A program made the position numbers and the translations under genes. A DNA stretch of 63,703 nucleotides, counting the filler, from Basidiobolus meristosporus CBS 931.73 (Eukaryota; Fungi; Basidiobolomycota), in the NCBI GenBank assembly GCA_002104905.1. It is 4 parts of 4 records of this genome, joined end to end, with 100 filler letters (N's around TTAATTAATTAA, not from the genome) between each part and the next. Parts side by side here need not be neighbours in the genome. Positions count along the whole stretch, not along the records: positions 34,003 to 51,114 come from MCFE01001103.1; 3 more parts are not named here. The stretch is one strand, 5' to 3'. The notes under the pieces are model-generated. The model was not told the DNA's origin, ran no database searches, and saw only the letters and a list, made by a program, of their open reading frames with translations. Position 1 is the first letter of the stretch. The number at the start of each line of letters is the position of its first letter. This document shows, one piece after another, positions 28,694 to 63,703 of the stretch.

Positions 28694-29059
28694 GTTTGTT
28701 GCTCAGCGATACTGATTTTGAGAGGAGCCGAGAGAGAGGGATTTATATACCGCTAGCTGTGACAAGGGTTCTGTGGAACGAGGCAGAGGGAAACCGCCAA
28801 TCCCAAGGTGGTATATAGCACGCAGCTGCACAGAAGAAAATCTCATCACTCGACTCTTGGGTCACTGGGGTGCTACCAGGCGAAACAGGATTTAACAGCC
28901 AATCATTTCGGTAATTGGCAACATGCACTAACACCAACGCAAATATAGTAATTTTGGTGAGTGGTTGCAAGGTGTACGAAGATCACAATCATGTTGAATG
29001 AAAAGTGACAGAAAGCGATGAGAAGATTAGGAGTAAATGTATTTTGCCATGGTTTTGTA

Positions 29060-29065
29060 CACGTG
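29060..29065. promoter_or_regulatory. CACGTG E-box (Pho4/NUC-1-type site) in the PHO84-phosphoketolase divergent intergenic region
   Basis: Motif read directly ~370 bp upstream of the PHO84 ATG; function is inferred from the yeast PHO regulon. Confidence 0.45.
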
Positions 29066-29421
29066 ACTTTCGGACATTAATAGGAAATCCGCTATATCTT
29101 TGAGCCAAACAAAAATCCTTGATTGCAACGAAACGAATACTAAATATCAAGTTTGCTCACCAACATACTCACAAAATACGAAGTCTTATGAGCATACTTG
29201 CCAGCCAGTAGTAGATATCTGAGATGGCCCTACCCTCTCTGTTCTTGATGCAGTTCGAAATTGTTACACTAGTCATTGTAGAATCAGTGGCTATCGTAAA
29301 TTTTCAGGGCATCATTCCAACTCTATTCGAGAATATTTGTGCAAGCAGATATGGCTTACCTTACCCACGGGGATATAGATTAACCTGCATCAAACACCAC
29401 CAAGGTCATTTCGAGTCGACC

Positions 29422-29477
29422 GTTATTGCGTAACAATACCTACAATTGTTTTGTTATTGCGTAACAATATCTACAAT
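29422..29477. repeat. Two 25-bp direct repeats (GTTATTGCGTAACAATA-C/T-CTACAAT), period 31 bp
   Basis: 29422-29446 and 29453-29477, one mismatch; core TTGCGTAA flanked by TATTG/CAATA inverted arms. Confidence 0.8.
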
Positions 29478-29858
29478 CGCGAGGCATACAATCCCGCCAA
29501 CTATCCCACGTAGCGTCCACACAATCTTAGGATCTTTATACTGATAAACACTTGATGATATCCATAGGCACAAGCGAAAATCATGTCACCCTTCTCCATT
29601 TTCTCATTATAATGGAGACTCAATTCAGCCACTATTCGACCATCATTACATCCTCTGACCACTATGTCACACCCTGACTTGTTCAAAATCAACTCGCGTG
29701 TCAACATCGGAATGATATCATTTAAAATTTATATGGAATACGGTTTGATCAGTATTGGAAAATATGCAACGTCACATATCTATGCTGTTTAGTGGCTTGG
29801 CATATAAAATTACGATCACTGAATGTGGAGGTATCAGTTATCTTTCTGCCTTTTCACT

Positions 29859-32285
29859 ATGCCTTCTGCCCCTACTAAAGCCTACTTGGAGCCCGATGGC
29901 GAACTCTTACCTCCCGCCAAGAATCTCTTGGTTGAGCTAGATCTAAGTAAGTTCGAGGAAACTCGACTGGAAGCTGTCATACTGCAGCAGCGAGCCGCCA
30001 ATTATTTAGCTGCTGCAATGATATTTCTCAAAGAAAATCCGCTACTTAGAGAGCCTCTCAAGAAGGAGCATATAAAGGATCGCTTACTTGGCCATTGGGG
30101 CACATGTCCTGGTATCAATCTAGTCTATGCTCATTGCAATTTCCTTATCAAGCAACACGACGATGTTAACATGTTCCTGGTTACTGGACCTGGTCATGGT
30201 GCTCCAGCTAATCTGGCCAACCTTTACTTGGAGGGTGCATTGAAAAAGTTTTATTCCCAATACGACCACACCCTAGAGGGTGTAACCAAGCTGGTACATG
30301 GCTTTTCTTGGCCTGGCGGATTCCCGAGTCACGTCAACTCCGAAGTCCCAGGCCAAATCCATGAAGGTGGCGAATTAGGATATTCGCTAGCTGTGAGTTT
30401 TGGTGCAGTGATGGATAATCCTGATTTAATAGTGACTTGCATTGTCGGGGATGGCGAAGCTGAGACTGGACCTACTGCCACAGCCTGGCACTCATACAAA
30501 TATATCGATCCCAAAGAAAGCGGTGCTGTCTTGCCGATACTTCATGTCAATGGGTTCAAAATCTCGGAGAAGACTGTATTCGGATGCATGGATAACACAG
30601 AGCTGGCGGCTTTGTTTAGCGGATATGGCTATCAGGTTCGCATTGTTGATGGCATGGACAATATCAACGTAAACATGGCTGTATCGATGGAATGGGCTTA
30701 CCAAGAAATACGAAAGATTCAGAAAGCAGCACGGGAAGGAAACCCAATCACTAAGCCCCGTTGGCCAATCCTGATCATGAGGACTTTGAAAGGGTGGAGT
30801 GGACCAGTTGAACTTCACGGCCAGGCCATTGAGGGCTCGTGGAAATCCCATCAGGTTCCTTTACCCAATGCAGCCAAAGATGACGACGAATTCGACCTAT
30901 TGAGTAAATGGCTTCAAAGCTACAAACCAGAGGAGCTCTTTGATGAAAGCGGGATTATTCGCCCTGAAGTAACCTCTGCATTTCCAGAATCAGGTCGCCA
31001 GATGGGCTCTCATCCGTTAACTTACGCTGGATACAAGCCGTTAGATGTGCCAGACTGGAAACAGTTTGCCATCAAAGAAAACACCGTCAATTCCAGTTGT
31101 ACAAAGGCCGCTGGACAATTCTTGAAAGCAGTTATTCAGCAGAATGAACGGAAATTCCGTATATTCTCGCCCGATGAGCTCTCTAGCAACAAGTTAGATG
31201 CCGTTCTTGAAATAACCAACAGAGACTTCCAGTGGGCTGAAGAAAGTCGGAATCATGGCGGTAGAGTGTCTGAGGTCCTTTCCGAACACACATGCCAGGG
31301 GTGGATGCAAGGGTACACTTTAACCGGCAGAGTTTCTCTTTTCCCATCGTACGAGACATTCCTTGGGATTATTACCACCATGATGGTGCAATATGCCAAG
31401 TTTGTGAAGATGGCCAAGGAGACCCCTTGGAGAGAGCCTATTGGCTCATTGAACTATATTGAAACCTCTACCCTTTGGAGACAGGAGCACAATGGATTCT
31501 CCCATCAAAACCCTGGCTTTATCAACAGTCTGATTTCGTTGAAGCCCTCCATGATTCGTATCTATTTGCCTCCAGACGCCAATTGTCTCCTTTCCACTTT
31601 AGCGCATTGCTTACGTTCGAAGGAATATATCAATCTCATGATTAGTGGAAAGCATGAGACCCCATCATGGTTAACGCCTGAGGAGGCCGATAGACATTGC
31701 ATTGCCGGGGCTAGCGTTTGGAAATTCGCCAGTACTGACGATGGCGTTGATCCTGATGTTGTCCTGGTAGGATGCGGCACCGAGGTTACATTCGAGGTGA
31801 TTGCCGCCGCTAGCATGCTACGTAAGGATTTCCCAGACCTTCGAGTGCGTGTAATCAACGTGACTGATCTAATGGTACTTGCTGGTGATGGAACACACCC
31901 CCATGCGCTCTCTGACAAGATCTTTAACAGCCTATTTACTACCGACAAGCCGATTGTCTTCAACTTCCATGGCTATTCCTCTGTCATCAAGCAGTTGCTC
32001 TACGATCGTGCTGATACCCTTGGACGTGTGGTAATTCGCGGCTACAATGAAGAAGGAACAACCACCACCCCGTTCCGAATGCTGACTGCAAACGGGGTTT
32101 CAAGATACGATGTTGCAATCAATGCCTTACGGATGATAGCCAGAGAAGTAAATCCGGCCAAGAGATTCCTAGCTGATGTGCACCTTCACATCAGCCAATA
32201 TCAGCACGAGATTCGCCAACACGAGAAGTACATCATCGAACACGGCACGGATCCCGAAGGCTTAACTGCTCGACCGGAATTTTAG
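29859..32285 (+). CDS. xfp: Xylulose-5-P/fructose-6-P phosphoketolase (808 aa)
   Basis: LLGHWGTCPG, GPGHG, HEGGELGY, GDGEAETGP (TPP binding), SEH.CQGW motifs; TATAAAA at ~29803; intronless. Confidence 0.96.
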   Translation: MPSAPTKAYLEPDGELLPPAKNLLVELDLSKFEETRLEAVILQQRAANYLAAAMIFLKENPLLREPLKKEHIKDRLLGHWGTCPGINLVYAHCNFLIKQHDDVNMFLVTGPGHGAPANLANLYLEGALKKFYSQYDHTLEGVTKLVHGFSWPGGFPSHVNSEVPGQIHEGGELGYSLAVSFGAVMDNPDLIVTCIVGDGEAETGPTATAWHSYKYIDPKESGAVLPILHVNGFKISEKTVFGCMDNTELAALFSGYGYQVRIVDGMDNINVNMAVSMEWAYQEIRKIQKAAREGNPITKPRWPILIMRTLKGWSGPVELHGQAIEGSWKSHQVPLPNAAKDDDEFDLLSKWLQSYKPEELFDESGIIRPEVTSAFPESGRQMGSHPLTYAGYKPLDVPDWKQFAIKENTVNSSCTKAAGQFLKAVIQQNERKFRIFSPDELSSNKLDAVLEITNRDFQWAEESRNHGGRVSEVLSEHTCQGWMQGYTLTGRVSLFPSYETFLGIITTMMVQYAKFVKMAKETPWREPIGSLNYIETSTLWRQEHNGFSHQNPGFINSLISLKPSMIRIYLPPDANCLLSTLAHCLRSKEYINLMISGKHETPSWLTPEEADRHCIAGASVWKFASTDDGVDPDVVLVGCGTEVTFEVIAAASMLRKDFPDLRVRVINVTDLMVLAGDGTHPHALSDKIFNSLFTTDKPIVFNFHGYSSVIKQLLYDRADTLGRVVIRGYNEEGTTTTPFRMLTANGVSRYDVAINALRMIAREVNPAKRFLADVHLHISQYQHEIRQHEKYIIEHGTDPEGLTARPEF

Positions 32286-32539
32286 ACGGCAATTGATTAT
32301 AGCGATGTTCAAATGTAGATAAAGAAATGTTTACTTCACCAGTGACTATGACAGTTAAAAATAGCCTTGCCATGATTGCATTGTTGTGACGTCGATAAAC
32401 ACCATGACCTCATCATGAATTTCAGCCATCATATAAAATCAAATGGATTCGCATGGTCACACACACACACATGTGTATGTATATATATATTTTTCTATTC
32501 ATCTGTTCTTGCACCAGTACTAGATTCGATTCTCCAACC

Positions 32540-33296
32540 ATGTCAACTCTTCGTAATAGACTGCAGACTTCGGAGCAGCATAGCACACCTGCTAGCTCTA
32601 CTGTAGAATATCTGAATAACCACTTCAATTTGGTCCGTGAGTTTCACCTCGCCGATTTCTTGACATTGTTAAATGGCACCTGTGGAACTGGCTCCATATT
32701 TGCTTCCATGTCATATCTCATAGAGAACAACACCGTATACCTATGGGTTGCCTTTTGGCTAATCCCATTGGGAACCTTCTTTGACTTTATGGACGGTAGA
32801 GTAGCTAGGTGGCGTAAAAATTCTTCTCTGCTAGGCCAGGAGTTGGACTCTTTAGCTGACTTGGTGCGTGTATTAGTAATGTTGGCCCTGACACAGAGCG
32901 CTCTAACCAAGCCTATTGTTTAAACAGATATCTTTTGGGGTCGCTCCTGCAGTGTTCGGGTTTACTTTGGGGCTCCGTTCCGTTATTGATATCTGTGTTC
33001 TCCTTTACTTTGTGTCCTGTGGAATCGCTCGATTGGCCAGATATAATGCAACAGTTGCGTCCTTGCCAAAAGACGAAAGTGGTAAGGTAAAGCACTTTGA
33101 AGGAACCCCCATTCCTACCACCCTCCTAATCACCGGCTATCTGGGGTATCTTGTATATGTGGGAGACATCCAGACCGCATTACCAGGCGGAGTTGCAAGT
33201 CTCGCCAATACCCTGACTTTCCACCCGCTTGTATTAGGCTATGCGTTGAGTGGGACACTGATGATCTCACAATCTCTTAAGATTCCCAAGATATGA
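32540..33296 (+). CDS. CHO1: CDP-diacylglycerol-serine O-phosphatidyltransferase, exons 32540-32863 and 32928-33296 (230 aa)
   Basis: DGRVAR...G.ELDSLADL|ISFGVAPA CDP-alcohol motif is joined by removing intron GTGCGT..CTAAC..CAG. Confidence 0.92.
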
Positions 33297-33902: not shown

Positions 33903-34002
33903 NNNNNNNNNNNNNNNNNNNNNNNNNNNNNNNNNNNNNNNNNNNNTTAATTAATTAANNNNNNNNNNNNNNNNNNNNNNNNNNNNNNNNNNNNNNNNNN
34001 NN
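33903..34002. other. Artificial contig spacer
   Basis: 44 N + TTAATTAATTAA + 44 N. Confidence 0.98.
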
Positions 34003-34080
34003 CATCAGTAAAGAGACTGCAAAGCTCACAAGAATCCAATCTAAGTTCTACAAGAAACTACCACTTTTCTGTCAGAAAAG

Positions 34081-34333
34081 TCCCCTCTAAGAAGCCCCTT
34101 TACTCTAAAGACACCCCTTTAGACACCCCTTTAGTCTAAAGACCCCTTTAGAGACCCCTTTAAGAAACCCCTTTACTCTAAAGAAGCCCCTTTAGGCACC
34201 CCTTTAGTGTAAAGTCCACTTTAGAGACCACTACAAGAAGCCCCTTTACTCTAAAGACACCCCTTTAGACACCCCTTTAGGTCTAAAGACCCCTTTAGAG
34301 ACTTCTACAACACACCCCTTTAGGTTAAAGGGG
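34081..34333. repeat. Minisatellite: 13 exact CCCCTTTA motifs in a ~73-bp higher-order unit x3, closed by hairpin CCCCTTTA-GGT-TAAAGGGG
   Basis: Counted directly; includes internal CTTTAG/CTAAAG inverted pairs. Confidence 0.9.
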
Positions 34334-34759
34334 AGTTCAGAATTTCCATATAAGGAAATATTCTCTCAGAAAGGAAAGTGACTTCCAACTAAGGAAAAGT
34401 TACTATAAAAGTAAATAAGCCCATTAGTCAACAGAAGGTCAGAACACTGCTGTAGAAGTGATGAACACTGCCTACAGTATATTTTGAGCCCAAGATTGAG
34501 GAAATTAGTGAAAGTTATATCTTCTATCGGTATATCAAACTCCCAATAAACTATTTCAGTATTAGCATACTGGAAGTTGTTGTATATTGTTGATTAGCCT
34601 CTACATTGTAGAACAAGCCCCAAACTAATCATAATACAACACAACAGAGCAGCTACACTATAGGCATAGAGCTGATTGTGTGGATATCTGCAGCTACTGT
34701 ATCTGTTCTCTACTCCATCTTGCTTGATGTGCAGAGAACATTGGGCCTTGCTTCACCTC

Positions 34760-35130
34760 CCGGAAGTGTTCTACTATTATAGAAGTATCAAGCAGCTGGC
34801 AGGATAATGTTTGTACATTAATGACTGATGAATGGTAAAGTATGACTTGTGTGGCAAAACATTGGCTGTGATCCTTGTAATAATTCCTATGCTGTCTTTG
34901 TGCCTCATAGCTGAGTGGCTTATTACAATATTCACATGGTCTTTCTCTCTTCTCTTATTGCACTGAGGCAACAAGCTTGCAACTCAACAATGTAGTGCTA
35001 TTCCACTACTTTTAGTCAATATTCATATGTATTTAAGAAGATCATGTGTTTGAGGTATTGTACCTACTCCAATTTAAAATATCAACAATGGACTGCCTTA
35101 GTAAGCATTGTAAATTAAGTTGAAGCACCA
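34760..35130 (-). repeat. Inverted paralogue of the CACTA inter-ORF region (~57700-58030)
   Basis: Reverse-complement similarity by eye (e.g. GATAATGTTTGTACA..TGACTGATGAATGG). Confidence 0.65.
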
Positions 35131-35249
35131 CATACATACATATGTGTTACAAGTCTTGATATAAAAGTAGTAGAGGAATAGGGAGTTTACTGGTATTGTA
35201 TTCACTAAAGCTTGAACTGATTTTTATTGAGGTTCCAGCTGCTCCATAT

Positions 35250-35712
35250 ATACATTTTGCCAGAACAATTGCTGACTAATTACTGTTGAAAAATTTCTGT
35301 GAATAATTTCCAAATTTCATTATCAAGAACATCAGGTCTTGTATTTTTTGTAACAGATAAAAATATATTGTCTTTGTTGGGTTTCAAATCATTAATAAAT
35401 TTAGATACCTTTTTGACGGCCTCACTGTGAACAACAGTACCTTCTGCCAATTCACACATTCCAATTGTATCAACAATTGTAAGATTACCATTGGTGATAC
35501 TTTTACATTCTGCAGTATATCTCCTAGTTTTGTCCAGAGTAATAAATGGCTGGGCTTGATTATTAAATTTTTGTTGTTCAAAAGAATGTTAGATAGTGTT
35601 GATTTGCCAGAACCCGTTTTCCTATTAGAGATATAGTATGGCAAGTTGCATCAACCCAATATCTGTCTTTGTTCAGGGGGTTTCAAGCCATTTCTGCTGT
35701 TTGTTGAGCATA
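35250..35712 (-). pseudogene. AIG1/GIMAP-type P-loop GTPase pseudogene 1
   Basis: Across frameshifts reads TISLIGK/TGSGKSTLSNIL ... TAECKSITNGNLTIVDTIGMCE (G1, G2 Thr, G3 DTxG); contains internal stops. Confidence 0.75.
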
Positions 35713-35940
35713 TTTTGTTACACGTCCAGCAAATTTATTTTTATTTTTTCCAAAATTATATTTAATTAATACATTTTAAAAAAAGGGGATATTATACGTT
35801 AATTAATTGTTATTAAAATAAAAATGCTGCAACTGCTGAAGCTACTAATGCAGGCGCCAATGTTAATTTTCTGCCCATGTCCAACAAAATTTCTTGACCC
35901 AATTGCCATCCAATGGATTTAATTATATCCTTGTTTACAT

Positions 35941-36678
35941 CTAGTAATGTAGCAGCCAATTCTCTTCTTGCTGCAAAGTGTGCTTATACCTAGTAGGCAG
36001 TTTGGATTGCTTTGTAGATATAAAATTTCTGATAGTGTTGGAAAGATGTTCAATGGATGTATATCTTCTCCTTGCTCTTAAAACTTGCTCTTCTTGATCA
36101 AGTCTGTCATCCATTTTTTCCAAAACTCCAGGAAGATCAACACCAATGAATTTTTTGCATGGATAAAATACTCTTTCTAAATCAGATACATTTTTGTCTA
36201 CCCATTTTTGATTGGTATGAGTTAAAATAACTAACAAACATGAATTGCATCCTTTGAACACACAATTAAAAGTTCTGCACGCAATTTCATCTGCAGGATC
36301 TATACGTCCCCCACCTTTAGAGACAAACATGACAGCTTGAAGTGGCAATTTTTTTTCTGACACCTGTTCCATAAACAAAAGTATATGATCAATAGATTTG
36401 GCTTTATCCACATTGTTGTCATAAACTTCTGAACAACCAACGGTATCAACTATTTGCCATCCATTCCCCAATCAAACATTTGTTTTCTTTGTGACTCCTC
36501 TGGCACTCATAACAGCTTTAAGCACATTGTTATTATAACCTTTTATCATACCCTGGGTTAACACATTTGCAACACTAGATTTTCCTCTTCCTGTAATCCC
36601 CACAACAACTCTATAAATAAGTCTGTATTCTTTTTCAACAACTTGACCATTGTGAGTTTTACTTGAACAACAACCCAT
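35941..36678 (-). pseudogene. AIG1/GIMAP-type GTPase with MGCCSS N-terminus; one in-frame TGA at 36472-36474
   Basis: ORFs 36472-36678 and 35941-36471 are in the same frame; VVGITGRGKSSVANVL (G1), GVT (G2), IVDTVG (G3), VILTH (G4-like). Confidence 0.85.
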
Positions 36679-36818
36679 GTTTAAAAAGTTTTGGAAGGCG
36701 TATTACAACACACTTGTCAATATATTTTTTTATACAACATAGTTTATTGTGATATTCATTTGCAAATATATACAAAGGTTTTTAAGACAGTATATTAGAT
36801 ATTTTGATAATATGCTTA

Positions 36819-37328
36819 CTACATTTGAATTGTTGGTACTATATTTTGTTCTGCCTTATAAATTAATCTTTTGGGTAAAGTTTGGTAGTTTGTATTTAAA
36901 AACATTATAGCTTTTTTCTGAGATTCCAAATTCATATTAGAAATAATGTTATCTCTTGGAACATACCATCTACATGTATATATGACAGATATGGAGAATG
37001 TTATACCTTCATATATAATAACTTTATCTAACCAATTGGGCATCTCTACTTCTTCTCTATATGGTATAGCTAAAAGGGTAACAGACATGTTTGATACATA
37101 AACTGTTTTATTTGGACTGCATGATGGTACAATGTGTGTGATATCTATATCATGTTTTACATTTGGGTTTTTCATACCTAAAATTTCTTCTATGGCAAGC
37201 CTCAAACCGGAAACATATATGTGTTTAAAACTAACATCAGAGTTCCTGGTGGTAATTATTATATTATTAATCCATTCATATCTTATGTTACATACATCCA
37301 CTGGATTTATTGTTTTACAATGTTTCAT
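36819..37328 (-). CDS. Hypothetical protein (169 aa), AT-rich, intronless
   Basis: Open ORF; its start overlaps the upstream stop codon as ATGA; no family recognised. Confidence 0.55.
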   Translation of the reverse strand: MKHCKTINPVDVCNIRYEWINNIIITTRNSDVSFKHIYVSGLRLAIEEILGMKNPNVKHDIDITHIVPSCSPNKTVYVSNMSVTLLAIPYREEVEMPNWLDKVIIYEGITFSISVIYTCRWYVPRDNIISNMNLESQKKAIMFLNTNYQTLPKRLIYKAEQNIVPTIQM

Positions 37329-37615
37329 CTTTTCTGTTGTTTTTTTTCAACTAAATTTTTTAATTGGGTAGACATTTGGTAATTTTTTTTGTTGTACTCT
37401 GTGTGTTGATGAATATCAGCAATATATTGCTGGGAAAGTATATTTAACTCTTTTATGTCAGAACACAATTTACCCAAAGTTTCTTCTTGAAGTAACATTG
37501 GGATATTATCCAATCCTTGAATTATGTTTGTCCATGAAACTTTGTTAATTAATATTTTGCTTGCTCCAGCTAATTCAACTTTGACCAATGGGTTTGCACT
37601 ATTTATATCATGCAT
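37325..37615 (-). CDS. Hypothetical protein (96 aa), AT-rich
   Basis: Open ORF tightly packed between neighbours; no family recognised. Confidence 0.5.
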   Translation of the reverse strand: MHDINSANPLVKVELAGASKILINKVSWTNIIQGLDNIPMLLQEETLGKLCSDIKELNILSQQYIADIHQHTEYNKKNYQMSTQLKNLVEKKQQKR

Positions 37616-37860
37616 TGGATCTATATCTAAATAACTTTTGCAAAATGTTCAAGAAATTTTGTTTTTTCTAGTATTGGTTCTAACATATCATTATTTTTTG
37701 GTATTTGTCTGCAAGAAATATTTTTTTGCTTTTGTACCAAATTAATTAAATTATATTCTACCCCAAGTGGAATATCATCCCTTTTATTATTTGTATAAGT
37801 TTTATGGTTGTGTTGATTGTGCCCATCTGATTTTATAATTCCTTTTTCAGCCATTTGATT

Positions 37861-39329
37861 AGACTTGTTCTGTTGAATAGTACCACATTGAGCAATGAGT
37901 GCCAAATGATGCCATAGTGTGCCAGAGAGGCCAAGTGAACCTATACTTTGCCACAGAGTGTGAAACATAGCTCTGCATCTTCATGCAAGGCCACCCCTGT
38001 GATTCACCCATTGTGTTGGAGAAAATACATTTTTTAACCTTTTTTTTTATGTCAATGTTGTGCAGGATGTGTAAGAGTACAAAAGGATTGAAGATATGCA
38101 TCTGGTACTCTATAGACTTGTTCCGTTGGATAGTGCCACATTGAGCCATGAGTGCCAAATGATGCCATAGTGTGCCAAAGAGGCCAAGTGAGCCTATACT
38201 TGGCCACAGAGTGTGAAACATAGATCGGCATCCTCATGCAAAGCAGCCCCAGTGTTTCACCTATGATGTAGGAGAAAATCCTTTTTTTGACGTTTTTTTG
38301 TGGATCAATGTTGTGCAGGATGTGTAACAGCACAAAAGAACTGAAGACATGCATCAGGTACTCAATACCCATGGCACTCTGAATCTAGCTCCTGTGGCTT
38401 GTAACATGTCACAAAAATGTATGGCACTATCTTGGTCCACTGGTACTATCTGGCACTATATTTAATTATTACCCCTAAAGTAAGATCAATACAAAGCACT
38501 ATAGTGCCAGATAGTACCAGTGGACCAAGATAGTGCCATGCATTTTTGTGACATGTTACAAGTCACAGGAGCTAGATTCAGAGTGCCATGGGTATTGAGT
38601 ACCAAATGCATATTTTCAATCCTTTTGTGCTCTTACACATCCGGCACTACATTGACCTAAAAAAAAAGGTCAAAAAATGGATTTTCTCCAACATAATTGG
38701 TGAAACACAGGGGCAGCTTTGCATGAAGATGCAAATCTATGTTTCACACTCTGTGGCCAAGTATAGGCTCACTTGACCTCTCTGGCACACTATGGCATCA
38801 TTTGGCACTCATGGCTCAATGTGGCACTATCCAACAGAACAAGTCTTATACCTATGGCACTCTGAATCTAGCTCCTGTAGCTTGTAACATGTCAGATAAA
38901 TGCATGGTACTATCTTGGTCTGCTGGTACTATCAGGCACTATATTTAATTATCAGCCCTAAATTAAGATCTATACAAATTACTTATAGTGCCAGATAGTA
39001 CCAGCAGACCAAGATAGTACCATGCATTTTTCTGACATGTTACAAGCTACAGGAGCTAGATTCAGAGTGCCATAGGTATTGAGTACCTGATGCATGTCTT
39101 CAATTCTTCTGTTCTCTTACACATCCTTCACAACATTGATCACAAAAAAACATCAAAAAATGAATTTTCTCCTGCATCATAGGTGAAACACAGGGGCTGC
39201 CTTGCATGATGATGCAGAGCTATGTTTCACACTCTGTGGCCATGTATAGGTTCACTTGGCCTCCCTGGCACACTATGGTGTCATTTGGCACTCATGGCTC
39301 AATGTGACACTATTGAATGGAACAAGTCT
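37861..39329. mobile_element. Foldback MITE, outer copy (733 bp net), TIR begins AGACTTGTTC, 3-bp TSD ATT
   Basis: AGACTTGTTC at 37861 and GAACAAGTCT ending 39329; ATT at 37858-37860 and 39330-39332. Confidence 0.9.
38114..38846. mobile_element. Foldback MITE, inner copy (733 bp = 347-bp arms + 39-bp spacer), 3-bp TSD TAT
   Basis: TAT at 38111-38113 and 38847-38849; arms 38114-38460 and 38500-38846 are imperfect reverse complements. Confidence 0.9.
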
Positions 39330-39345
39330 ATTATTCTCATGATGC

Positions 39346-40415
39346 TGTGGTGGTGTATAGGTCCAAGGGAGAGATACGTCCAACACTTCTCAAGTGTTTT
39401 GTGTGTGGGGTGTTCACTGGGTGCAATAACCTCTGGCAAAAGCTTGCTAGGAATACTTGGGTTCTGTGTCTAATCTAATGTGAAGGGGAGTAAAGCCACA
39501 AGCTTGTCAAGGGAAAACTATTGAGCTACAATCCCCAACTTAGTTGGCGTCTTAACAAAAGTATGTGCTGGGTTCAGTGTCCTTTGAGATGACAATGTAC
39601 TAAAGCTTCCAAAGTCAAAACAACTGTAAACTCCACCAGCAGGGACTTGATAAGAATGCAGCTGTGGTCAATAGTTACAAAGACAGAAAAGTATCTTTGC
39701 CTGTACAAGAACAAATTTGGGAAAGAATCAAATATAATAAAAGATACCTACTCTGAGTATTGCTCACAAGTAGTGCCTCCAAGGTTAGTTGGCTGTCAAC
39801 ACGGTTTCCTGGGAGTGTCCTGTGGTCTAGGGTTGGAAGTTCAGGTAGTAGCAGTTAGCAGTGATCACACTAATCAACAAGTTGGTATATTGATAAAATG
39901 GATGATGAGTTATTGTTGAGGGATAGCCTCCCTTATATACTTTTCTTACTGGCTAAGTGATTACTAATCATGGTGTTCCAGAAGGTTCTGGATATCAATA
40001 GAAATCTTAATACATCAAAATGACCTAAGAATGTTCTAAGTAGGTGCCGGAAGGTTCTAAGAGGCACAGCACATCCAACCAATCAGGAATCAGTATTCTG
40101 AAACCTGTGTAACATAGGGATACCATATATGGTATGGAAATGGTAGGGATGGTGACACGGGTTGATCATATGTCATGGGTACTGGCACAGGTACTTGCCT
40201 AGTATAGAAGCACTTATAGCTAGTAATCTTACATAAAGTGAGGGGTAACTTATGCAATAAGGTAAGCAGGCATGATAGTCAACCGGCTTATGGGATGGTA
40301 CTGATTGGGTAAGACAAATGGGATAAAACTAAAATAAGTGTAGTAGAGATATAGGGAAGTAGAAAATAAGGGAATGAGCACATCTCTCAGTGGGTGTCAC
40401 TGTCACCCCACTACA
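39346..40415. mobile_element. Solo LTR (1070 bp), 4-bp TSD ATGC
   Basis: TGTGGTGG...CCACTACA termini; ATGC at 39342-39345 and 40416-40419; inverted paralogue at 53800-54870. Confidence 0.9.
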
Positions 40416-40593
40416 ATGCCTTTGATTCTGAAAAGGTTGTTGACAACTTTTAAATTCTTGGTTTAAATCTAAATGCATTTTAACATGATGCATATTTTTC
40501 AGCTTTCTGATTTAATTTATTTTGTATACCACTCACAAGGTTGATAATAATATTTTTTCTTGACAATTTTTAGATCAATGAGGTCTTTGTCAA

Positions 40594-41465
40594 ATGTGCA
40601 CAATCATATTACAAATTGTGTATCAGTGTATGATTGGCATTGACAATATTGTAACTAGTTTAGTTACCAGTGGGGCAGTTTACCTTCCAAAAACTTTTGC
40701 AAAAAGGTTGGCCAAATCTGATTTTGTTACAGCTCTACAAGAGCATCTTACCAGTAGAACATCCAAAACTCATCCCGTATTTTTCTGTAATTTAAATAGA
40801 AAAACAAATACCAAAGATTATAAATATTTTGACATTAACAATAAAGTTGGCCTTGCAGGTGTTGAGAAAAGTATAGGAGATGCAGTTACAATGCCAGATC
40901 AGGCAACTTCCATTGTTGGGAAACTATTAAACAACAGCTAAACCAATGTCCTTTTGTTGTTGAAGATGTTTCTAAAAGTGGACAAAAATGCAAATTACTT
41001 GAAGAAAATAAAAGTTGGTACTTTGGCAATTGCAAATTGGAACATATAATTAACAGCAGGATTAAAGTTTGGTTGACCAATTTAGTTAATAATCATGAAT
41101 TTTATGACAAATTAGAAGCCAGTGGTGCTGTACAACCATTAATTAATATGTTTTTAGTTACTAGTTTTGCAATTAATAAAATTGGGGAACAATTATACTA
41201 AAGATATTTTACATCTCACAAAATTGCCTGCATTGGTTATATTAAATATCCAGATTCTGTTCATGCCCCTTCTTATAACATTTATAAATTGGATATAACC
41301 ACGGATTCTTGTCTCAAGAAGATTGTTTTTTGAGCTTCTCAAAGTATTGGTGTCCAAGGTGAATATACAGGGAAAAGATATATACATAGATATGAAATTA
41401 TCCAAGTTATGTCTCCAAAAGCAATTACACATGCAGTCAACTCTGCAATTGATATGTTTGAGTAA
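40594..41465 (+). pseudogene. AT-rich hypothetical gene, ~290 codons, with one frameshift (~40915) and two in-frame stops
   Basis: ORF 40594-40941 continues in a shifted frame as ETIKQQLNQCPF...LY*RYF...IVF*ASQ...DMFE*. Confidence 0.55.
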
Positions 41466-41574
41466 TGTTATATTAATTTGTTTTTTAAAAAAAAATACAG
41501 ACATATGTATCTAATAAAATAGTTAACATATTTGTAATACAACTTATACAAATATTTGACTCATATCTTTCAAA

Positions 41575-42241
41575 TGGCCACATTAAAATTTCCAATTTCC
41601 ACATCTCCATATCACAAAATTACAACATTGGCTCTTGATATGAAATGTGCAATTAACCAACATGTATCTAATGACGCATGGAATAACAAAAATATGTTTC
41701 AGTGCTTATTAAATGTTAATAATAATTTAGATGTACAAACTCCCATTCATGTTGTTGAAAAACTTGATCTGCAGAATAATATTACTAAACTGAAGAATTT
41801 TAATATGTCAACATACATTTCTGCAACACTTGAAACTCACGTAGCTTTGGCTCTCCAAAATATTAACAACAATGGTGATGTATGGGAGCATATTAAACCT
41901 AATTACATGAAAAATTTGGAAACTAATATAACGTGTATTTTTCAACAAATAAAAAAACTCTTAAAAATAAAATTTTATATGGTGAACACAATACTTGGGA
42001 ACGTTTACATCATACCAATATCATTGAACTTCCAAGAGCCAAAACACCATACTTTGAAATTTATACTATGCGGACTTGGATATCTTTTAAGGGTGATAAA
42101 TTTTTTTGGTCTAAAAATTCATCTTCTAAAATTATAACCAAAATATCAACCGTAAATGTTTATACAACCGGGAAACTATTTGATAAACTGCAGTCTGCAA
42201 TAAAATCTGATCTTATTAATAATACAAATAACTTTTTTTAA
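41575..42241 (+). pseudogene. AT-rich hypothetical gene with a frameshift in an A-run (~41950)
   Basis: ORFs 41556-42137 and 41933-42241 join as ...CIFQQI/KKTLKNKILYGEH...; no family recognised. Confidence 0.5.
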
Positions 42242-42419
42242 GAATTTTATGGAAATGTGATTTGTAAAACTCTTTGTTTAATATGTTTACAACATGTTAA
42301 AAATTAATTTTTTTCTATTTTTAATATGCTGACTAACAATATTAGGTATATCATGTTATTTTGTTATTACAAAATTTGTTATTAAAAAATATGCAATGTT
42401 GGATTATTTGGCTTTAACA

Positions 42420-44081
42420 TTATCATTCAGTGATGTTAGCATTGGATGGCATCATCTTAAGGCCAGCATACCATGGGACCATCAGGAACTCAAGGCTAAG
42501 CAGAATGTGCTTGACCTGTTTCATGTGCATTATCCTTGATTCAAGCAAGTAAACAGATTTTGGGCCAGTATTGGAATGCTAAGAAAGTATCTCAAGAATA
42601 GCAGAAACTGTCAAAGGCCAAAGAACAAGGGTGCCATGGCTAAAGACCAGTGGCTTCCTCAGGAGCTTGTCACAAACAGGGCTGAACACTCCAAACAAGT
42701 GGCAAAGAAATGTCTGATAGTCAGAAGAGTGCCAATAAGGGACAGGCAGGCAGAAACAGATGCATCTGTGCAGTATTTAGAAAGGAGGAAGCATTGCTTA
42801 ATACATGAAGCACTCAGTCATAATAGCAGCAAAGGACTTGACAGTGATAATAACCCATGGCTCTCTCAGGTGCCAATCACAAGTAGAGCTGATAGTTTCA
42901 AGCAAATGGCTAAGAAATGTCAGGTTTCCAGCAGAGTGCCAGCAAGGGACAAGCAGGCAAAAATGGATGCACCAGTGCAGCATTCTTCAAGGAGAAAACA
43001 GAGTATCATACATGAAGCACTCCATCAAAGTAGCAGTGAAAGACTTGGCAGTGATAAAGGTAAAGAGAAAAAGGAGTACCCAAGCCAAAGACAGGGAAAT
43101 GTCAGAAAAAAGCTGTGGTTCTCACTAATTAACACTGTCAGCCCAGATCAGGTGGAATCCCATAATAGCCAAGAAGAATTACCAACAAAAAAGCAGCTGT
43201 TTTCTTAAGAGTTGGAAGCGCAGCCACTTGTGCTACACTCCAGTGAGGTAGATGAGCTTGCAGAGAAAAGCAATTTGTCTTCTACTGCCTCCACAGCCTC
43301 CATTGTAGACAGAGTTGAGATCCCACTGACAGACAAAGCAGCAATGTTGAGGACTCACAAGACTATCACAATGCCTACAGTGGAATTTTGGAACATTGAT
43401 AGGCACACCTAGAGGTTACAGCACCACTTCAGGAGCAGTGCTCATGAAAGAGCACCTGAGTATTGCAAGGATTTATTCCAAAGACTGGCAGATGTGGTAC
43501 CAGACCTTAGAGTGCTGGCTGAAGACCAGGACATATGGAAACCAGTGAATGAAGAGTGGCATAAAGCTGTAGGGTTTCCACTATAGTCATTAAAAATGGG
43601 TGCTACAGCATAAATACTGATTAGATGGTGGATTTTAATGGAGTTATATATTGAGTGTGAGGTTAGGCTTAATACTAGTGCTAGGGATAGGGACTTGTAT
43701 AAGTCAAATACAATTGGCAATTGAGTTACAACTGAAGTTTCAATGGATATAAATCAACTTGTATGCATAAAAAGAAGAGAATTGATTGAGTCAGGAAGTA
43801 GGAAGTGTGAAAAAGAGGCAATAGCCAATCAATGAACACAAATGTAGGAGGTGATTGAGTGTCTGAGATCAGAAAGTGGCAGAATTGGCAGAGGACCAAT
43901 CAAAAGCCACTTATGCATTGTTGTGATAAAAATTTTGACCAAGTGATTTGTAAAATCTGGGGTGCAATTATTTTTTAATGGTCTTTGCGTGATGGCCTGA
44001 TGGGATCTATCTCTCTTAGTCACAGGACTTTAATTTTGTGATGGCCTTTTGACAGAATCATTGCAATCATTTCTCATAGGG
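42420..44081 (+). mobile_element. CACTA/CMC remnant: 3' part of ORF-X and terminus ...CATAGGG
   Basis: Paralogous to the reverse complement of 53770-56850; ends in the complement of CCCTATG. Confidence 0.7.
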
Positions 44082-44368
44082 TCCAGTGAGATAGATGAGC
44101 TTGCAGAGAAAGGCACTTTGTTTACCATTGCCTCCATATCCTCTGTTGTAGACAGAATTAATATCCCATTGACAGACAAAATATAATATCAAGAACTCAA
44201 GAGACTATCACAAAGCCTATAGTGGAATTTTGGTACATTAGTATGCATACCAAGAGGTTGCAGCACTTCTTCATGGGCAGTGCTTAAGAAAACACAATTT
44301 AATATTACAAGGATTTATTGCAAAGACTGGCATATGAGATGCTAGACCTTGCAGTGCTGGCTGGAGAC

Positions 44369-47300
44369 TGCTGTAAGAGTCTTGGAGATATTAGAAGTGA
44401 TTGGGAGAACAAGTAGATTATGTGGTTTTCAATTAGTGATTTATTGAATGTAAAAGTAGTATTTATACTTTTACATGATTTTGGCATTGCAAACACATAG
44501 AATAGACTAAGGAAGGTCCCATGAGCATGTGTGCAAGGTTTGGGGCTGTTTGGACACTTTGAGAATTTTCATATTCTGGGTACCTGGTATTTTGGTGAAA
44601 TATTCTAAGTAAATCCTGACAAGGAATTTGGTCAGTATTCTCTAGGAATTGAAGATAATGATCTAAGTGACTAAGTTGGATGAATATTTAGGTGGAACTA
44701 TGAGTTTTTACAACACTCCCACTCAGCTAAATGTTCATACTAACTGGTCCTAACTTTGACCTAAGATATTCAAACTTGTCACTAGCTAATGGTTTGGTAA
44801 ATATGTCTGCAAACATTTCAACTGTAGGACAGTATACTAAGCTAACTAAGCTACTCTCTATAGCTTCACGTATGAAATGATGTCTAATATCTATGTGCTT
44901 GGTTCTAGCATGAAAAGTTGGATTTCTACCTATTTGTGTACATCCTTGATTATCTTGAAATAAAGTAATAGGCGTTTTTTGACATAGGCCTAAATCTGTA
45001 AAGAGCTTTCTTAACCACATTGCTTCTTTTGTAGCTTCACAGGCTGCCATTTACTCTGCCTCTGTGGTAGAAAGTGCTATGGTTGGTTGCTTTCTTGAGT
45101 TCCATGAAATTTCTCCTTTACAGTAAAGTAAGGTGTATCCTGTGGTGGAACTTCTGTCATGCAAATTTTGTCCCCAATCAGCATCAGAGTATCCCACAAG
45201 ATCCTATTGTGAATCCTTATAAGTGTATTGTCAGCAGGTATCAGCAGTTTCTTTTAGGTATCTAAAAATCCACTTAACTGCTGCAATATGATCAGATCCA
45301 TAGCTCAGATTAAGTTGGCAGACAACTCCCACTGAATATGAGATGTCTAGACATGTTCCAAGCATAATATACATCAGACTGCCAGTCATAGATTGATAAG
45401 GAAAGTCAGGGCTTTCAGATGGCATCAAGCACTCTTGATTTGGTTGAGTTTTGACCAAGTTAAGGTTTGTCTCCATTGGGGTAGCTGCTGGTGTACAGTC
45501 TTCCATCTGGTACTTCTTTAGTATATCTTGAATATACTTGAATTGACTTAGGGTGATAGTCTGGGTACTTCTGTCTATGGAGAACCTAATCTCTAAGTAG
45601 TAACTGAGTTCTCCTAGATTGGACATCTTGAACTCCTTAGGTAGGTTGGGTTTAGTCTCTTCCAATGTTTCTAGGTTATTGGCAGCTATAATAAGATCAT
45701 CCACATATAGAGCAAATAGAACTGGATTTGCTCTATCTGGCTTATTGTATATACTATAGTCAGCATTACTCCTTTTGAAACTCAAAGATTCCAAATAAGA
45801 ATCTATCTTGCAATTCCAGGCTCTTGGTGATAGTTTGAGACCATATAGTGACTTTTTAAGCTTGCAGACCAAATGGGGGTTATCTTAGTCAACAAACCCA
45901 TCAGGCTGGTCCATATACATGTCCTCATCAAGTTCTCCATTCAAAAATGCAGCTTTTACATCCATATGATGAGTAAAAAACTTATATTGGGCTGCAATAG
46001 CCAATATTAATCTGAAGGAATTAAACTTGGCTACTGATGCAAAGGTCTCAGTATAGTCAAGTCCTTTTGTTTGAGTGTATCCTTTAGCCACAAGTCTTGC
46101 TCTGTATCTTTCAATTGTACCATCAGCCTTGTATTTTGTCTTGAAGACCCATCTGCATCTAATTGATTTTTGGTTGATTGGTAATTTGACTAAGTCCCAA
46201 GTTTGATTTTCCATCAGGGCCTGATATTCCTCAGTCATTGCAGATCTCCAAAACTTTGTCTGAGGGCTATTTAGGGCCTCTTTTACAGTCTGGGGCTCAT
46301 CAATATGGACTGAATAGGCATAGGCTAAGTTTGTACCCTCATTGATATAGTAATTTGGGCTATTTCTTGTCTGATTGGATCTCCGGGCATTTGATACTGG
46401 AATGATCACTTCTGGAATATTCCTGGGCACTTATTCTGGCTGAACCATTGTTGTAGAGTCCTCTGGAGTGAAAAAATTTTCATTGTGTTGCTCTGATTCA
46501 ATCCTGACAATTGGTGGACTTGAAATCAGATACTCATCAGCATATGATATCATTTTTTGGGAGAATTTTGAATTTTCATCCAACAACACATCCCTAAACT
46601 TGATTAGCTTCATTGCTTTGGCATTGTAGAGTCTGTATGCTTTATTCTCATTGCAGTAGCCCAAAAATATGCATTTTGCACTTTTTGGCTCAAATTTTGA
46701 CTGATTTCTGGACAGTTTCTTGGCATATGCTGTACACCCATGTATTCTTAGATGTTCTGCACTTGGTCTGTACCCATACCATGCTTCAAATGCAGTAGAA
46801 TCACAGCATATTCTGCTATAACTCCTATTCTTAAGGTATACAGGAGTGGCAACTGCTTCCACCCATATATCATAGGATAATTCTTGATCATGGATCTTAG
46901 ATCTTGCCATATCAGTTATTGATCTATTAGCACATTCTGCTACTCCATTTTGCTGTGGGGAGGATGGTACAGTAGTCTCTTGCTTTATCTCATGAATTTT
47001 GCAGAAGTGGATGAAGAGTTTTGAGGTATATTCTCCACCATTGTCAGAGTGTATTTTCTTGATCTTTTCACCAGTTTCTCTCTCCACCATGGCTTTAAAC
47101 TCCCTGAACTTAGACAGAGCTTTTCCTTTTTCTCCATGAAGTAAACCCATGTGTATTTTGTATAATCATCAATAAAAGTGATTAAATACATCATCCTGCC
47201 TAAGGATAAATTTTGCATAGGTCCACACAGATCTGAGTGAATTAGAGCTAATTTTTTCTTAGTTTTGATTAACCCAGAGCTCTTGAACAATTGTCTGGCT

Positions 47301-49249
47301 TGTTTTGCATGTATGCAGGCTTCACAGTGCTCCAAATTTGCTGGGGGATCAATTTTTACTGCAGAAATTAGCTGACCTTTGATTGTTTTGCGCAAATAAT
47401 CAAAATTGATGTGCCCAAATCACCTGTGCCAAAGCATTGCTGTTTCTTCATTTAAGTTACTTATATTGGCTTCCAAATATGATGGAATATAAGTCAACTT
47501 GTATAGGTTCTGATCTCTGATACCCAAAGCAATATGGGCACCATTTTGATCAGTGATCTTGCATCCAGAATTGTCAAAGCCAAAACTGAGTCCTTCTGCT
47601 GTAGCAAAACTGAGTCCTTCTGCTGTAGCCTTGCCTACAGATAGTAGATTTTTGGCTATGTCTGGTACATAAAGTACCTCTTTAAAGGTCAGTGTATGGC
47701 TTCCTTCACTGCTTCTTGGGTTTACTTGGATAGTTCCTTCTCCCACTGCATCAAGTGTTCTATAGTCACCCATGAAAACCTTCTCAATTGGAATTTCTTG
47801 ATATTGGGTAAAAAGTTCTTGTAGGTGTGTAAAGTGTCAAGATGCTCCAGAGTCAGTATACCATGTCTGAGAATCCTTGTTTGTGGTCATATTTAGTGCA
47901 GATATGAATAGTCTATCTTCAGTTGTTGCAGCATTTCCATGTTCAGGCTTTTTCTGCTGACTGTCTCTCTTTCTGAAGTACCGGTCTGATGTGTGTCCTT
48001 TCCTTTTGCAGTAGTTGCAAAACAGGTTACTGTTGCCTTTGTAGGGTCTTGGGTTCTTCCTTTGTTGGACACCATTGCTTATTAAGGCATTTTCTTCTTC
48101 CTTCTTATTGATGCTTGATTTTCTTAATTCTTCATCCAGGAGCCTTCCATATACATAGTTTAAGGTCAAATCTTCAGTTCTGGACTCTAGGGCTGATACA
48201 AGGCCCTGAAACCTGTCTTTCAGGCTATCCAGGATGGTAACCATGACATCCTCATCAGTAGTTGGTACACCCACAAATTCCATCTGATCTAACAGCACGG
48301 TAATTCTGTTGATTAGATTTTTCATTTCTTCTCCTGGCAGCATCTTTGTGGTACAGAATTTTTGTCTCTGATACATTTTCTTAGCAGCTGAACATGACTG
48401 GTAGGTGTCTTCTAATGCTTTCCAGGCATTCTTTGCTGTTTTGCTCTTGAGCATTGAATTAGCAATTTGTCCTTGACATTAAGGCATATGCAGTTAAAGG
48501 CATTTTGTTGTTTCTTCTGGTACTTAAAGGCTTCCTCTCCCACATTTTTAGGAGGGCATTCTTCTCCCATGACAATATCCCAAAGGCCTCTTTCTTGTAG
48601 CAGCATTTTCATCTTCACCTTCCACACTTGGTAATTAGATCCATCCAACTTATCAGCAGAGGGAAAAATTCCAGTAATAGCATTAGTAGACATTGCAGAG
48701 AGTGACAGCTTGGGGCTTGTAGCCTGTTGTAAGAGTCTTGGAGATATTGGATGTGATTGGGAGTAGAAGTAGATTATGTGGTTTTCACTTATTGATTTAT
48801 TGAATGTAAAAGTAGTATTTATACTTTTACATGGTCTTGGCATTACAAATACATAGAATAGGCTAAGAAAGGTCCCAAGAACATGTGTGCAACGTTTGGG
48901 GCTGTTTGGACAACTTATCTAATTTTCATGTTCTGGGTAAATATTCTAAGTAAATCCTGACAAGGAATTTGGTCAGTATTCTCTAGGATTTGATGGTAAT
49001 GATCTAAGTGACTAAGTTAGGTGAATATTAAGGTGGAAATACAAATTTTTACAACATAAGGAAGGTCCCAAGAACATATGTGCAAAGTTTGGGGCTGTTT
49101 GGACAACTTATCTAATTTTCATGTTCTGGATAAATATTCTAAGTAAATCCCAACAAGGAATTTGGTCAGTATTCACTAGGACTTGAAGGAAATGATCTAA
49201 GTGAATAAGTTAGGAGACTATTTAGCTGGAACTACAAGTTTTTACAACA
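44369..49249 (-). mobile_element. Decayed full-length Ty1/copia (LTRs 44369-44715 and 48725-49056, plus partial LTR 49057-49249), TSD GAGAC/AAGAC
   Basis: Fragmented ORFs 44727-48843 are paralogous to 59113-63216, with multiple stops and frameshifts. Confidence 0.9.
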
Positions 49250-49438
49250 AAGACCAGGGCATTTAGGAACCAGTGGATGAACAATGGCATAATGCCACAG
49301 GATTCCTTTCAAAGTCATGGAAACAGAGTGTTACAGCAGAAATACTTACTGAATGGTGGATTTCAATGGAGTTACTTGTTGGGCATGGGGTTGGGCTTAA
49401 TGCTAGTGGTGGGGATAGGGACTTGTATAGGTCAGTAC

Positions 49439-49913
49439 TGTTGTAAAAAATTTGTATTTCCACCTAAATATTCACCTAACTTAGTCACTTAGATCATTAC
49501 CATCAAATCCTAGAGAATACTGACCAAATTCCTTGTCAGGATTTACTTAGAAAATTTACCCAGAACATGAAAATTAGATAAGTTGTCCAAACAGCCCCAA
49601 ACTTTGCACACATGTTCTTGGGACCTTCCTTAACCTATTCTACGTGTTTGTAATGCCAAGACCAGGTAAAAGTATAAATACTACTTTTACATTCAATAAA
49701 TCATTAAGTGAAAACCACATAATCTACTTGTCCTCCCAATCACTTCCAATATCTCCAAGACTCTTACAACACCTTAAACCATTCTATGTGTTTGTAGTGC
49801 CAAGACCATGTAAAAGTATAAATACTACTTTTACATTCAATAAATCAATAAGTGAAAACCACATATCTACTTGTTCTCCAATCACATCCAATATCTCCAA
49901 GACTCTTACAACA
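49439..49913 (+). mobile_element. Copia solo LTR (49439-49771) plus partial LTR (49772-49913), TSD AGTAC/AGCAC
   Basis: TGTTGTA...TACAACA termini; reverse complement of the 58753 LTR. Confidence 0.85.
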
Positions 49914-51114: not shown

Positions 51115-51214
51115 NNNNNNNNNNNNNNNNNNNNNNNNNNNNNNNNNNNNNNNNNNNNTTAATTAATTAANNNNNNNNNNNNNNNNNNNNNNNNNNNNNN
51201 NNNNNNNNNNNNNN
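51115..51214. other. Artificial contig spacer
   Basis: 44 N + TTAATTAATTAA + 44 N. Confidence 0.98.
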
Positions 51215-63437: not shown

Positions 63438-63703
63438 TGTATGACCATGCCTTTGCTTTAACACTTGATGGATTCTCATCAAACAAGTACTCTACCAGCA
63501 AATCCTGATGACCACTGATTCTCATCAATCTGAATCTGCTGCCCATCTTACGGTATCAGAGCAATAATCTGATGGTAGTCTCACTGGTATCTGGGCCTAA
63601 ATCACCGTCCAACCTGGATATCTACCTGTATCCATTGCTGAATGAATTTTGTATGCTTTCCAGCTGGATAATAGTAAATGGCCATCATGTAAAAGCACAT
63701 ATT

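What the first reader, a model, noticed from the sequence alone, without database searches (positions are those of the whole stretch)
35180..42420. Decayed AT-rich, intronless, gene-dense block that looks foreign: endogenous large DNA virus or endobacterial insert
Seen: after removing two nested MITEs and a solo LTR, ~4.7 kb remains at roughly 25-35% GC (sampled lines). It holds seven packed ORFs or pseudogenes, five on minus and two on plus, diverging at ~40.5 kb, with no recognisable introns, short AT-rich spacers and an ATGA stop/start overlap. Excising the insertions restores a 106-aa ORF, showing prior contiguity. Five products match no family I recognise and two are AIG1-type GTPases. 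Known: Nucleocytoviricota-derived regions occur in early-diverging fungal genomes, and Mycoplasma-related endobacteria of Mucoromycota are AT-rich and encode AIG1 proteins. Inference: an integrated, methylation-silenced foreign element.
Basis: partly seen in the sequence, partly recalled or inferred. Interest (0 to 1): 0.8.

Follow-up and report, generated by a model that had tools for sequence, protein, structure and literature searches.

The report
Dead foreign gene block in fungus
A 4.6-kb stretch of tightly packed, very AT-rich, broken genes, two of them GIMAP-type GTPases, sits among transposons in a Basidiobolus fungus and is likely a fossil piece of a large DNA virus, a kind of relic already reported from this species.

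Summary
The observation largely holds. Without two nested MITEs and a solo LTR (all with target-site duplications), 4,617 nt of unique DNA remain at 29.5% GC, about 87% covered by broken genes with 84-140 nt spacers. It was AT-rich before decay: eroding host genes to this GC gives about 32 stops per 1,247 codons; 3 are seen. Two genes are deeply diverged GIMAP/AIG1-type GTPases; the rest have no homologue found. Corrections: the first 100 nt are a repeat; the ATGA overlap may be a frameshift (five genes, not seven); Ns on both sides separate the piece from host genes. New: the block replaces about 780 nt inside one CACTA transposon copy, with no second copy seen. An identical gene model is labelled Basidiobolus meristosporus, where giant-virus polymerase fossils are already published. 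No viral hallmark gene or viral relative was found, so a viral origin is likely (0.5), not shown. A Mollicutes origin is disfavoured. The scan had not noted this elsewhere.

The parts
35282..42445 (.). The foreign block, with 2.55 kb of later insertions; 4,617 nt unique, 29.5% GC, 19 CpG
35282..35711 (-). GTPase pseudogene G2 (GIMAP/AIG1-like): P-loop at 35620-35570, rest in the next frame 35576-35283, cut at its 3' end by a repeat; start codon inferred
   Evidence: family profile, E 3e-15 in a window-wide search
35813..36678 (-). GTPase pseudogene G1 (GIMAP/AIG1-like): starts MGCCSS, in-frame TGA at 36474-36472, hydrophobic tail in another frame at 35983-35816 (tail assignment inferred)
   Evidence: (MMR_HSR1 5.6e-8, AIG1 2e-5)
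36819..37328 (-). Open frame of 169 codons, no homologue found; possibly the 3' part of one longer frameshifted gene
37325..37615 (-). Open frame of 96 codons, no family match; its TGA overlaps the next ATG (ATGA) just after a run of 8 A
37627..40493 (-). 106-codon frame in three pieces (40493-40420, 39345-39333, 37860-37627) split by the LTR and the MITEs
37861..39329 (.). Outer MITE (37861-38113 plus 38850-39329), long inverted arms, duplication ATT
38114..38846 (.). Inner MITE of the same family, duplication TAT
39346..40415 (.). Solo LTR, TG...CA, duplication ATGC; high copy in the reads' contigs
40578..41465 (+). Pseudogene of about 295 codons in three frames with two in-frame stops (41199, 41331); no homologue found
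41574..42241 (+). Pseudogene in two frames (41574-42134 and 41927-42238); no homologue found; a weak Copia-gag look-alike was not backed
34780..35151 (.). Left flank: 74% like 58022-57628 of a CACTA-type element
35162..35281 (.). Short piece of another high-copy repeat that cuts G2 (left edge approximate)
   Evidence: depth, loose ends at 35281
42446..44053 (.). Right flank: 79-80% like 56847-56219 and 55857-54873 of the same CACTA-type element, same order and direction

Best explanation
The block is dead, AT-rich DNA of non-host make-up lodged in a fungal transposon nest, and it is likely a fragment of the accessory-gene region of a large DNA virus (Nucleocytoviricota) that once infected Basidiobolus. 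Likely sequence: (1, inferred) viral DNA was ligated into a copy of a CACTA transposon during break repair, replacing about 780 nt of it; (2, inferred from CpG loss) the host methylated it like its transposons; (3, shown by duplications) a MITE, a second MITE inside the first, and an LTR element landed in one gene, the last now a solo LTR; (4, shown) stops and frameshifts accumulated. It most likely does nothing today. In the donor the two GTPases would have been membrane-anchored scaffolds of the GIMAP kind, G1 through a predicted N-terminal myristoyl/palmitoyl motif and a hydrophobic tail (motif reading recalled, untested).
For: Make-up unlike host and unlike host transposons: GC3 0.23 and FYMINK/GARP 2.48, against 0.54/1.08 for three host genes and 0.37-0.41/1.3-1.65 for two equally CpG-poor retrotransposon frames. 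Decay cannot explain it: loss of every CpG leaves host genes at 43-46% GC, and C-to-T erosion to the block's 31% coding GC gives 32-34 stops per 1,247 codons (lowest 24 in 60 runs) against 3 seen. Spacers 84-140 nt at 17-23% GC against 165-1,120 nt at 35-41% between host genes. CpG o/e 0.16-0.23 against 0.75 in host genes. Short-read contigs hold both halves with 0 other letters, and the left one runs 53 nt into the MITE. An identical gene model is labelled B. meristosporus, a species with three published giant-virus PolB fossils, two of them flanked by Copia/Gypsy domains (PMC7017919). Standard code, no bacterial signals. Two adjacent paralogues only 18-26% alike, on the longest branches of the tree.
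Against: No capsid, A32, PolB, D5, RNA polymerase or other hallmark match. Eight of eight scans of viral contigs gave no true relative (the one locus, L001, is a phage primase-helicase P-loop). The 98 other GTPase hits are at most distant (top hit 34%, E 7e-19) and their sources are unknown; one carries a Crinkler domain, a cellular mark. No terminator-hairpin signal in 5 of 5 spacers. A published capsid search of 2,543 fungal genomes found one non-zoosporic hit, not Basidiobolus (PMC13533422). Long branches also follow from pseudogene decay.
Confidence: 0.5

Rival explanations
1. DNA from another AT-rich eukaryote, or from an undescribed large mobile element, picked up as cargo by the CACTA transposon in which it sits.
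For: Both flanks match one CACTA-type element in the same order and direction. The GTPase family has cellular-looking members: one Crinkler fusion, 7 of 99 ending in C-x-x-x.
Against: No second copy at 85% or more in the two runs that hold it, so it was not amplified as cargo; a different repeat lies at the left junction and no duplication or inverted ends were seen. Spacers of 84-140 nt, one of them divergent, are short for nuclear genes (inference). Three to five orphan frames in a row.
Confidence: 0.2
2. An integrated piece of a cytoplasmic linear plasmid (virus-like element of the zymocin-plasmid kind).
For: Such elements are reported in Zoopagomycota (Coemansia), with many ORFs of unknown function, and VLE-like clusters integrated in nuclear genomes are proposed for other fungi (PMC13348850, passages). 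TTGAC lies within 50 nt of 3 of 5 starts (p 0.003, one of five motifs tried), loosely like cytoplasmic early promoters (recalled).
Against: No polymerase, helper-plasmid, chitinase or toxin match. The paper's main text does not mention Basidiobolus or GTPases. ATNTGA at only 1 of 7 starts.
Confidence: 0.12
3. A chromosome piece of an AT-rich endosymbiotic bacterium (Mollicutes-related or similar).
For: GC matches Mollicutes-related endobacteria, 29-33% (PMC11423566). Basidiobolus has 2-5% genes of bacterial origin (PMC7466969). Endosymbionts such as Amoebophilus carry GIMAP-like effectors (PMC3417536).
Against: No housekeeping gene. No Shine-Dalgarno motif at 7 of 7 starts; 16 TGG against 2 in-frame TGA, so not the Mycoplasma code. 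Sigma-70 sites 42 against 36.7 +/- 5.7 by chance. Two pattern scans of 185,579 prokaryote genomes with GTPase subgroups found no relative (low sensitivity). The two papers read place these bacteria in Mucoromycota.
Confidence: 0.11
4. Native fungal genes degraded by methylation-driven mutation in heterochromatin.
For: CpG loss as in neighbouring transposons; 36% of native genes of this species lack introns (PMC7466969); AIG1 families are expanded in some early-diverging fungi (PMC8778642).
Against: Erosion test; GC3 far below that of decayed transposon frames; no fungal orthologue or paralogue found for any frame searched.
Confidence: 0.07

Closest known systems
Endogenous 'fundsalphavirus' elements (Pithovirus-related NCLDV fossils; Gong, Zhang and Han 2020, PMC7017919)
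   Same: Same host species label; broken genes among Copia/Gypsy elements.
   Different: Those loci were found by PolB and carry core genes (D5, SNF2 helicase, RPB1/2/5). This block has none, and its piece (17,112 nt) matches none of the three listed contigs (137,082, 92,759, 33,329 nt).
Mycodnaviridae and the Rhizophagus irregularis 1.5-Mb giant endogenous viral element (PMC13533422, PMC10640383)
   Same: Integrated, gene-dense, compositionally distinct, largely orphan genes, mostly silent (passages).
   Different: Those are 350 kb to 1.5 Mb with marker genes; this is 4.6 kb, fully decayed, with no marker.
GIMAP/AIG1 GTPases (Pfam PF04548; human GIMAP7, PDB 3zjc)
   Same: A profile of G1's family matches GIMAP7 best, E 5.5e-18; P-loop, DTxG motif and hydrophobic tail present.
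   Different: G1 itself scores under the AIG1 cut-off (24.5 of 27 bits); both copies are broken and on long branches.
Zymocin-like linear plasmids (VLEs) of Mucoromycota and Zoopagomycota (PMC13348850)
   Same: Fungal cytoplasmic DNA with many unknown ORFs.
   Different: Reported as free, high-coverage molecules with B-family polymerase; none of that here.

Membership tests
Endogenous Nucleocytoviricota element | At least one hallmark gene (capsid, A32, PolB, D5, VLTF3, RNA polymerase) | tested here: not met
   No Pfam, PHROG or NCBIfam match of that kind in the block; no giant-virus profile library was available
Endogenous Nucleocytoviricota element | Closest relatives of the genes are viral | tested here: inconclusive
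   No true hit in 8 of 8 short-pattern scans of viral contigs; sources of the GTPase relatives unknown
Endogenous Nucleocytoviricota element | Dense, short-spaced genes with composition unlike the host | tested here: met
Endogenous Nucleocytoviricota element | Physically joined to host DNA | tested here: met
   Host repeats inserted with duplications; a short-read contig runs 53 nt into the MITE. The link to host genes crosses N gaps and was not shown.
Endogenous Nucleocytoviricota element | Related blocks with core genes elsewhere in the genome | not testable with these tools
   No whole genome held; published PolB fossils exist in the species but were not linked to this block
Mollicutes-related endobacterial insert | Bacterial housekeeping genes or bacterial best hits | tested here: not met
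Mollicutes-related endobacterial insert | TGA read as Trp (code used for these genomes in one step of PMC10507103) | tested here: not met
   16 TGG, 2 in-frame TGA in 1,247 codons
Mollicutes-related endobacterial insert | GC about 23-33% | tested here: met
   29.5%; ranges
Linear cytoplasmic plasmid (VLE) | Protein-primed polymerase or YKP helper genes; terminal inverted repeats | tested here: not met
CACTA cargo | Lies between parts of one element | tested here: met
CACTA cargo | Copied with the element | tested here: not met
   One contig per half, no second copy at 85% or more in runs X1 and X2
GIMAP/AIG1 GTPase | AIG1-type G domain | tested here: met
   Family profile best matches GIMAP7, 4, 5, 1, 2; G1 alone just under Pfam's cut-off
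GIMAP/AIG1 GTPase | GTP binding, dimerisation, membrane anchoring | not testable with these tools
   Both genes are broken; motif reading only

The most novel reading that the evidence does not exclude
The block preserves accessory genes of the never-isolated Pithovirus-related virus lineage of terrestrial fungi, showing that it carried a tandem pair of lipid-anchored GIMAP-type GTPases, a family otherwise tied to eukaryotic immunity, and that such viruses may have spread this GTPase subfamily among early-diverging fungi and other hosts.
Probability: 0.25. Interest if true: 0.6.

Novelty: new member of a known kind. Interest (0 to 1): 0.33.

Why it matters
Fungal giant-virus fossils have been found through core genes, so their accessory genes are nearly unknown. 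A markerless block like this one, detectable by composition and spacing alone, would extend that gene list and suggest that marker searches undercount viral DNA in fungal genomes. GIMAP-type GTPases are reported from a few animal viruses and endosymbionts (PMC3417536, passage); one search for GIMAP with 'giant virus' listed 4 papers, and the passages read in two of them report none in giant viruses. The locus itself is inert and its origin is unproven, which limits its value.

Tried and rejected
Homologue searches for orphan frames: 40866-41462 in the 5.8-billion set (0 of 19 candidates), viral contigs, metagenomes, phages (one 6e-2 match), PDB; 36822-37328 and 41574-42134 in viral contigs, PDB and the Atlas. 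The 96-codon frame, the 106-codon frame and 40633-40938 were scanned only against family libraries. Copia-gag look-alike for 41574-42134 (score 0.93, 134 of 256 features): rejected, no Pfam gag match at E 10, pairwise E 1.4 to the window's own gag. Both single-sequence folds failed (pLDDT 30 and 36); the one fold search had no match at E 0.001 and is meaningless. GTPase subgroup scans of metagenomes and prokaryote genomes were blank; G1 had no match in plasmids. Source names of the GTPase relatives could not be obtained; a profile search returned only 4 proteins, one named. Trees: no supported home for G1 or G2; the careful tree did not finish; G1+G2 as sisters is not rejected, p-AU 0.70 (28 of 98 relatives, quick tree). 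The two introns of the database model P0001 remove the stop and the DTxG motif and are taken as prediction artefacts. No RNA holder listed. Run X4 (another sample with the same species label) covers some host genes at 90-95% but hardly the block, and X3 covers neither: no evidence of absence. Hairpins in spacers, sigma-70 sites and terminators are at chance level. Earlier scan notes: none on this feature.
Full report
Setting. The window is four pieces separated by 100-nt gaps of N44-TTAATTAATTAA-N44. The finding lies on the piece 34003-51114 (17,112 nt), which otherwise holds only repeats. The host genes at 25-33 kb lie across a gap, so adjacency to them is not shown. The only close match of the larger GTPase among 277 candidates is a 193-residue gene model, identical apart from two gaps, on a contig of 17,112 nt, labelled Basidiobolus meristosporus by its source. 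No whole genome was held.

The observation. Two MITEs of one family, 733 nt each and 88% alike, are nested, with 3-nt duplications ATT (outer) and TAT (inner). A 1,070-nt LTR with duplication ATGC follows 16 nt later and is 94% like a second solo copy at 53800-54870. Removing each with one duplication copy leaves an open minus-strand frame, 104 codons from 40487 and 106 from the ATG at 40493. One frame in three would be open by chance at each joint, so the duplications are the stronger proof of earlier contiguity. The unique remainder is 35282-42445 less insertions: 4,617 nt, 29.5% GC, about 87% in reading frames. Nine frames of 100 codons or more occur, against 0.49 expected and 0 of 1,000 resamples (one of the nine is antisense to a gene). 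The three minus-strand frames between 37860 and 36822 overlap by 19 nt each, stop to stop, like the frameshifted halves of the other genes (40, 73 and 208 nt). The ATGA overlap follows a run of 8 A. I infer they may be one broken gene of about 375 codons, which would make five genes.

It is foreign. Block codons have GC3 0.23 and FYMINK/GARP 2.48; three host genes 0.54 and 1.08; the Copia and Gypsy frames, just as CpG-poor, 0.37-0.41 and 1.3-1.65. Turning every CpG of the host genes to TpG leaves 43-46% GC. Random C-to-T erosion to the block's coding GC gives 32-34 stops per 1,247 codons, never under 24 in 60 runs, against 3 seen (the block pieces were chosen as open stretches, which lowers their count somewhat). 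Spacers are 84-140 nt at 17-23% GC, against 165-1,120 nt at 35-41%. Lack of introns is weak evidence: G1's domain is collinear with relatives in one frame, but three host genes here are single frames too, and 36% of native genes lack introns (PMC7466969, passages).

It is integrated and dead. CpG o/e is 0.16-0.23, against 0.75 in host genes and mostly 0-0.2 in transposons, with raised CpA/TpG; methylation is inferred. Two runs of one sample, possibly the source of this DNA, hold the halves as single contigs with 0 other letters; one runs 53 nt into the MITE. No second copy at 85% or more was laid. Depth is 39 and 24, against about 200 on host genes and about 50 on an adjoining repeat contig. 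The library type is not on record and depth is no copy number, so this stays unexplained. New here: 34780-35151 and 42446-44053 match 58022-57628 and 56847-54873 in order and direction (74-80%), and that element's transposase continues past a Copia insertion into a Transposase_21 match (E 1.6e-10). The block thus stands in place of about 780 nt of one CACTA copy, with a short piece of another repeat at the left joint.

The genes. G1 matches MMR_HSR1 (5.6e-8) and AIG1 (2e-5, under cut-off). A full search gave 99 proteins at E 0.001, one of them its own model; the best other is 34% identical. A profile of the family best matches GIMAP7, 4, 5, 1 and 2 among solved structures. G2 matches a subgroup profile at 3e-15 with its P-loop in the next frame. 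G1 and G2 share no DNA similarity and 18-26% protein identity; both have the longest branches and no supported neighbours, and being sisters is not rejected. The relatives' sources could not be learned. One has a Crinkler domain and 7 end in C-x-x-x, so at least part of the family looks eukaryotic. The other frames have no homologue in any search run; a gag-like Atlas lead failed its checks.

Which donor. For a large DNA virus: Gong et al. list three PolB fossils of a Pithovirus-related lineage in this species, two among Copia/Gypsy domains, on contigs of other lengths (PMC7017919; main text parts 1-2 of 3, supplement passages and part 2 of 7). The architecture fits, the code is standard, and the MGCCSS start reads as a eukaryotic lipidation signal (recalled). 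Against: no hallmark gene, and no true relative in 8 of 8 scans of viral contigs, though these scans need near-exact short words. A capsid survey of 2,543 fungal genomes found none in this genus (PMC13533422, passages). For a bacterium: GC fits (PMC11423566, PMC10507103, passages) and bacterial transfer is common in this genus. Against: 16 TGG to 2 in-frame TGA, no Shine-Dalgarno at 7 of 7 starts, chance-level sigma-70 sites, no housekeeping gene, blank scans of prokaryote genomes. TTGAC near 3 of 5 starts (p 0.003 before allowing for five motifs tried) is a weak hint of shared promoters and does not separate virus from plasmid. Other papers seen as passages: PMC10640383, PMC3417536, PMC12373286, PMC8778642. 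Supplements of the later virus papers were not read and may list this locus.

Verdict. A real, foreign, decayed insert. It resembles a giant-virus fossil in build and setting but fails the hallmark-gene test, so it cannot be filed as one. Odds: virus 0.5, other eukaryote or mobile cargo 0.2, linear plasmid 0.12, bacterium 0.11, native 0.07. It is a further example of a known kind; interest 0.33.

Noticed in passing
window 13892-13991, 33903-34002, 51115-51214: Three identical 100-nt gaps (N44, TTAATTAATTAA, N44). They may be artificial joins, so order across them should not be trusted.
   Followed up: partly
window 4413-10144: A perfect-looking 5.7-kb inverted repeat (99.65%) of a Gypsy pol frame, centred near 7280: a fold-back assembly artefact or a very recent inverted duplication.
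   Followed up: no
window 35252-37912 and 40389-42474: Read-contig depth 39 and 24 against about 200 on host genes: AT bias, library type, one haplotype or a subset of nuclei are all open.
   Followed up: partly
window 44369-49057 and 58753-63438: Two Copia copies 92.6% alike; the second has an unbroken 1,416-codon frame and splits the CACTA transposase.
   Followed up: partly
window 25274-33296: Host genes with normal CpG, named from recall of their motifs: old yellow enzyme, phosphate transporter, an intronless 820-codon phosphoketolase, and a spliced phosphatidylserine synthase.
   Followed up: no
window 34079-34330: Three to four tandem 73-nt units in a very high-copy repeat at the start of the piece.
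   Followed up: no
window 15106-19119 and 23645-24401: Several copies of a non-LTR retrotransposon (endonuclease and RVT_1 matches), broken by a Gypsy-like element.
   Followed up: no
window 13144-13884 (-): A 246-codon frame rich in Asp, Tyr, Gly and His behind a signal-peptide-like stretch; no Pfam match.
   Followed up: no
window 846-2044: Short repeats of 91-108 nt shared with 1953-2044, 3643-3750 and 11850-11940, tRNA-like by their translation; not scanned.
   Followed up: no
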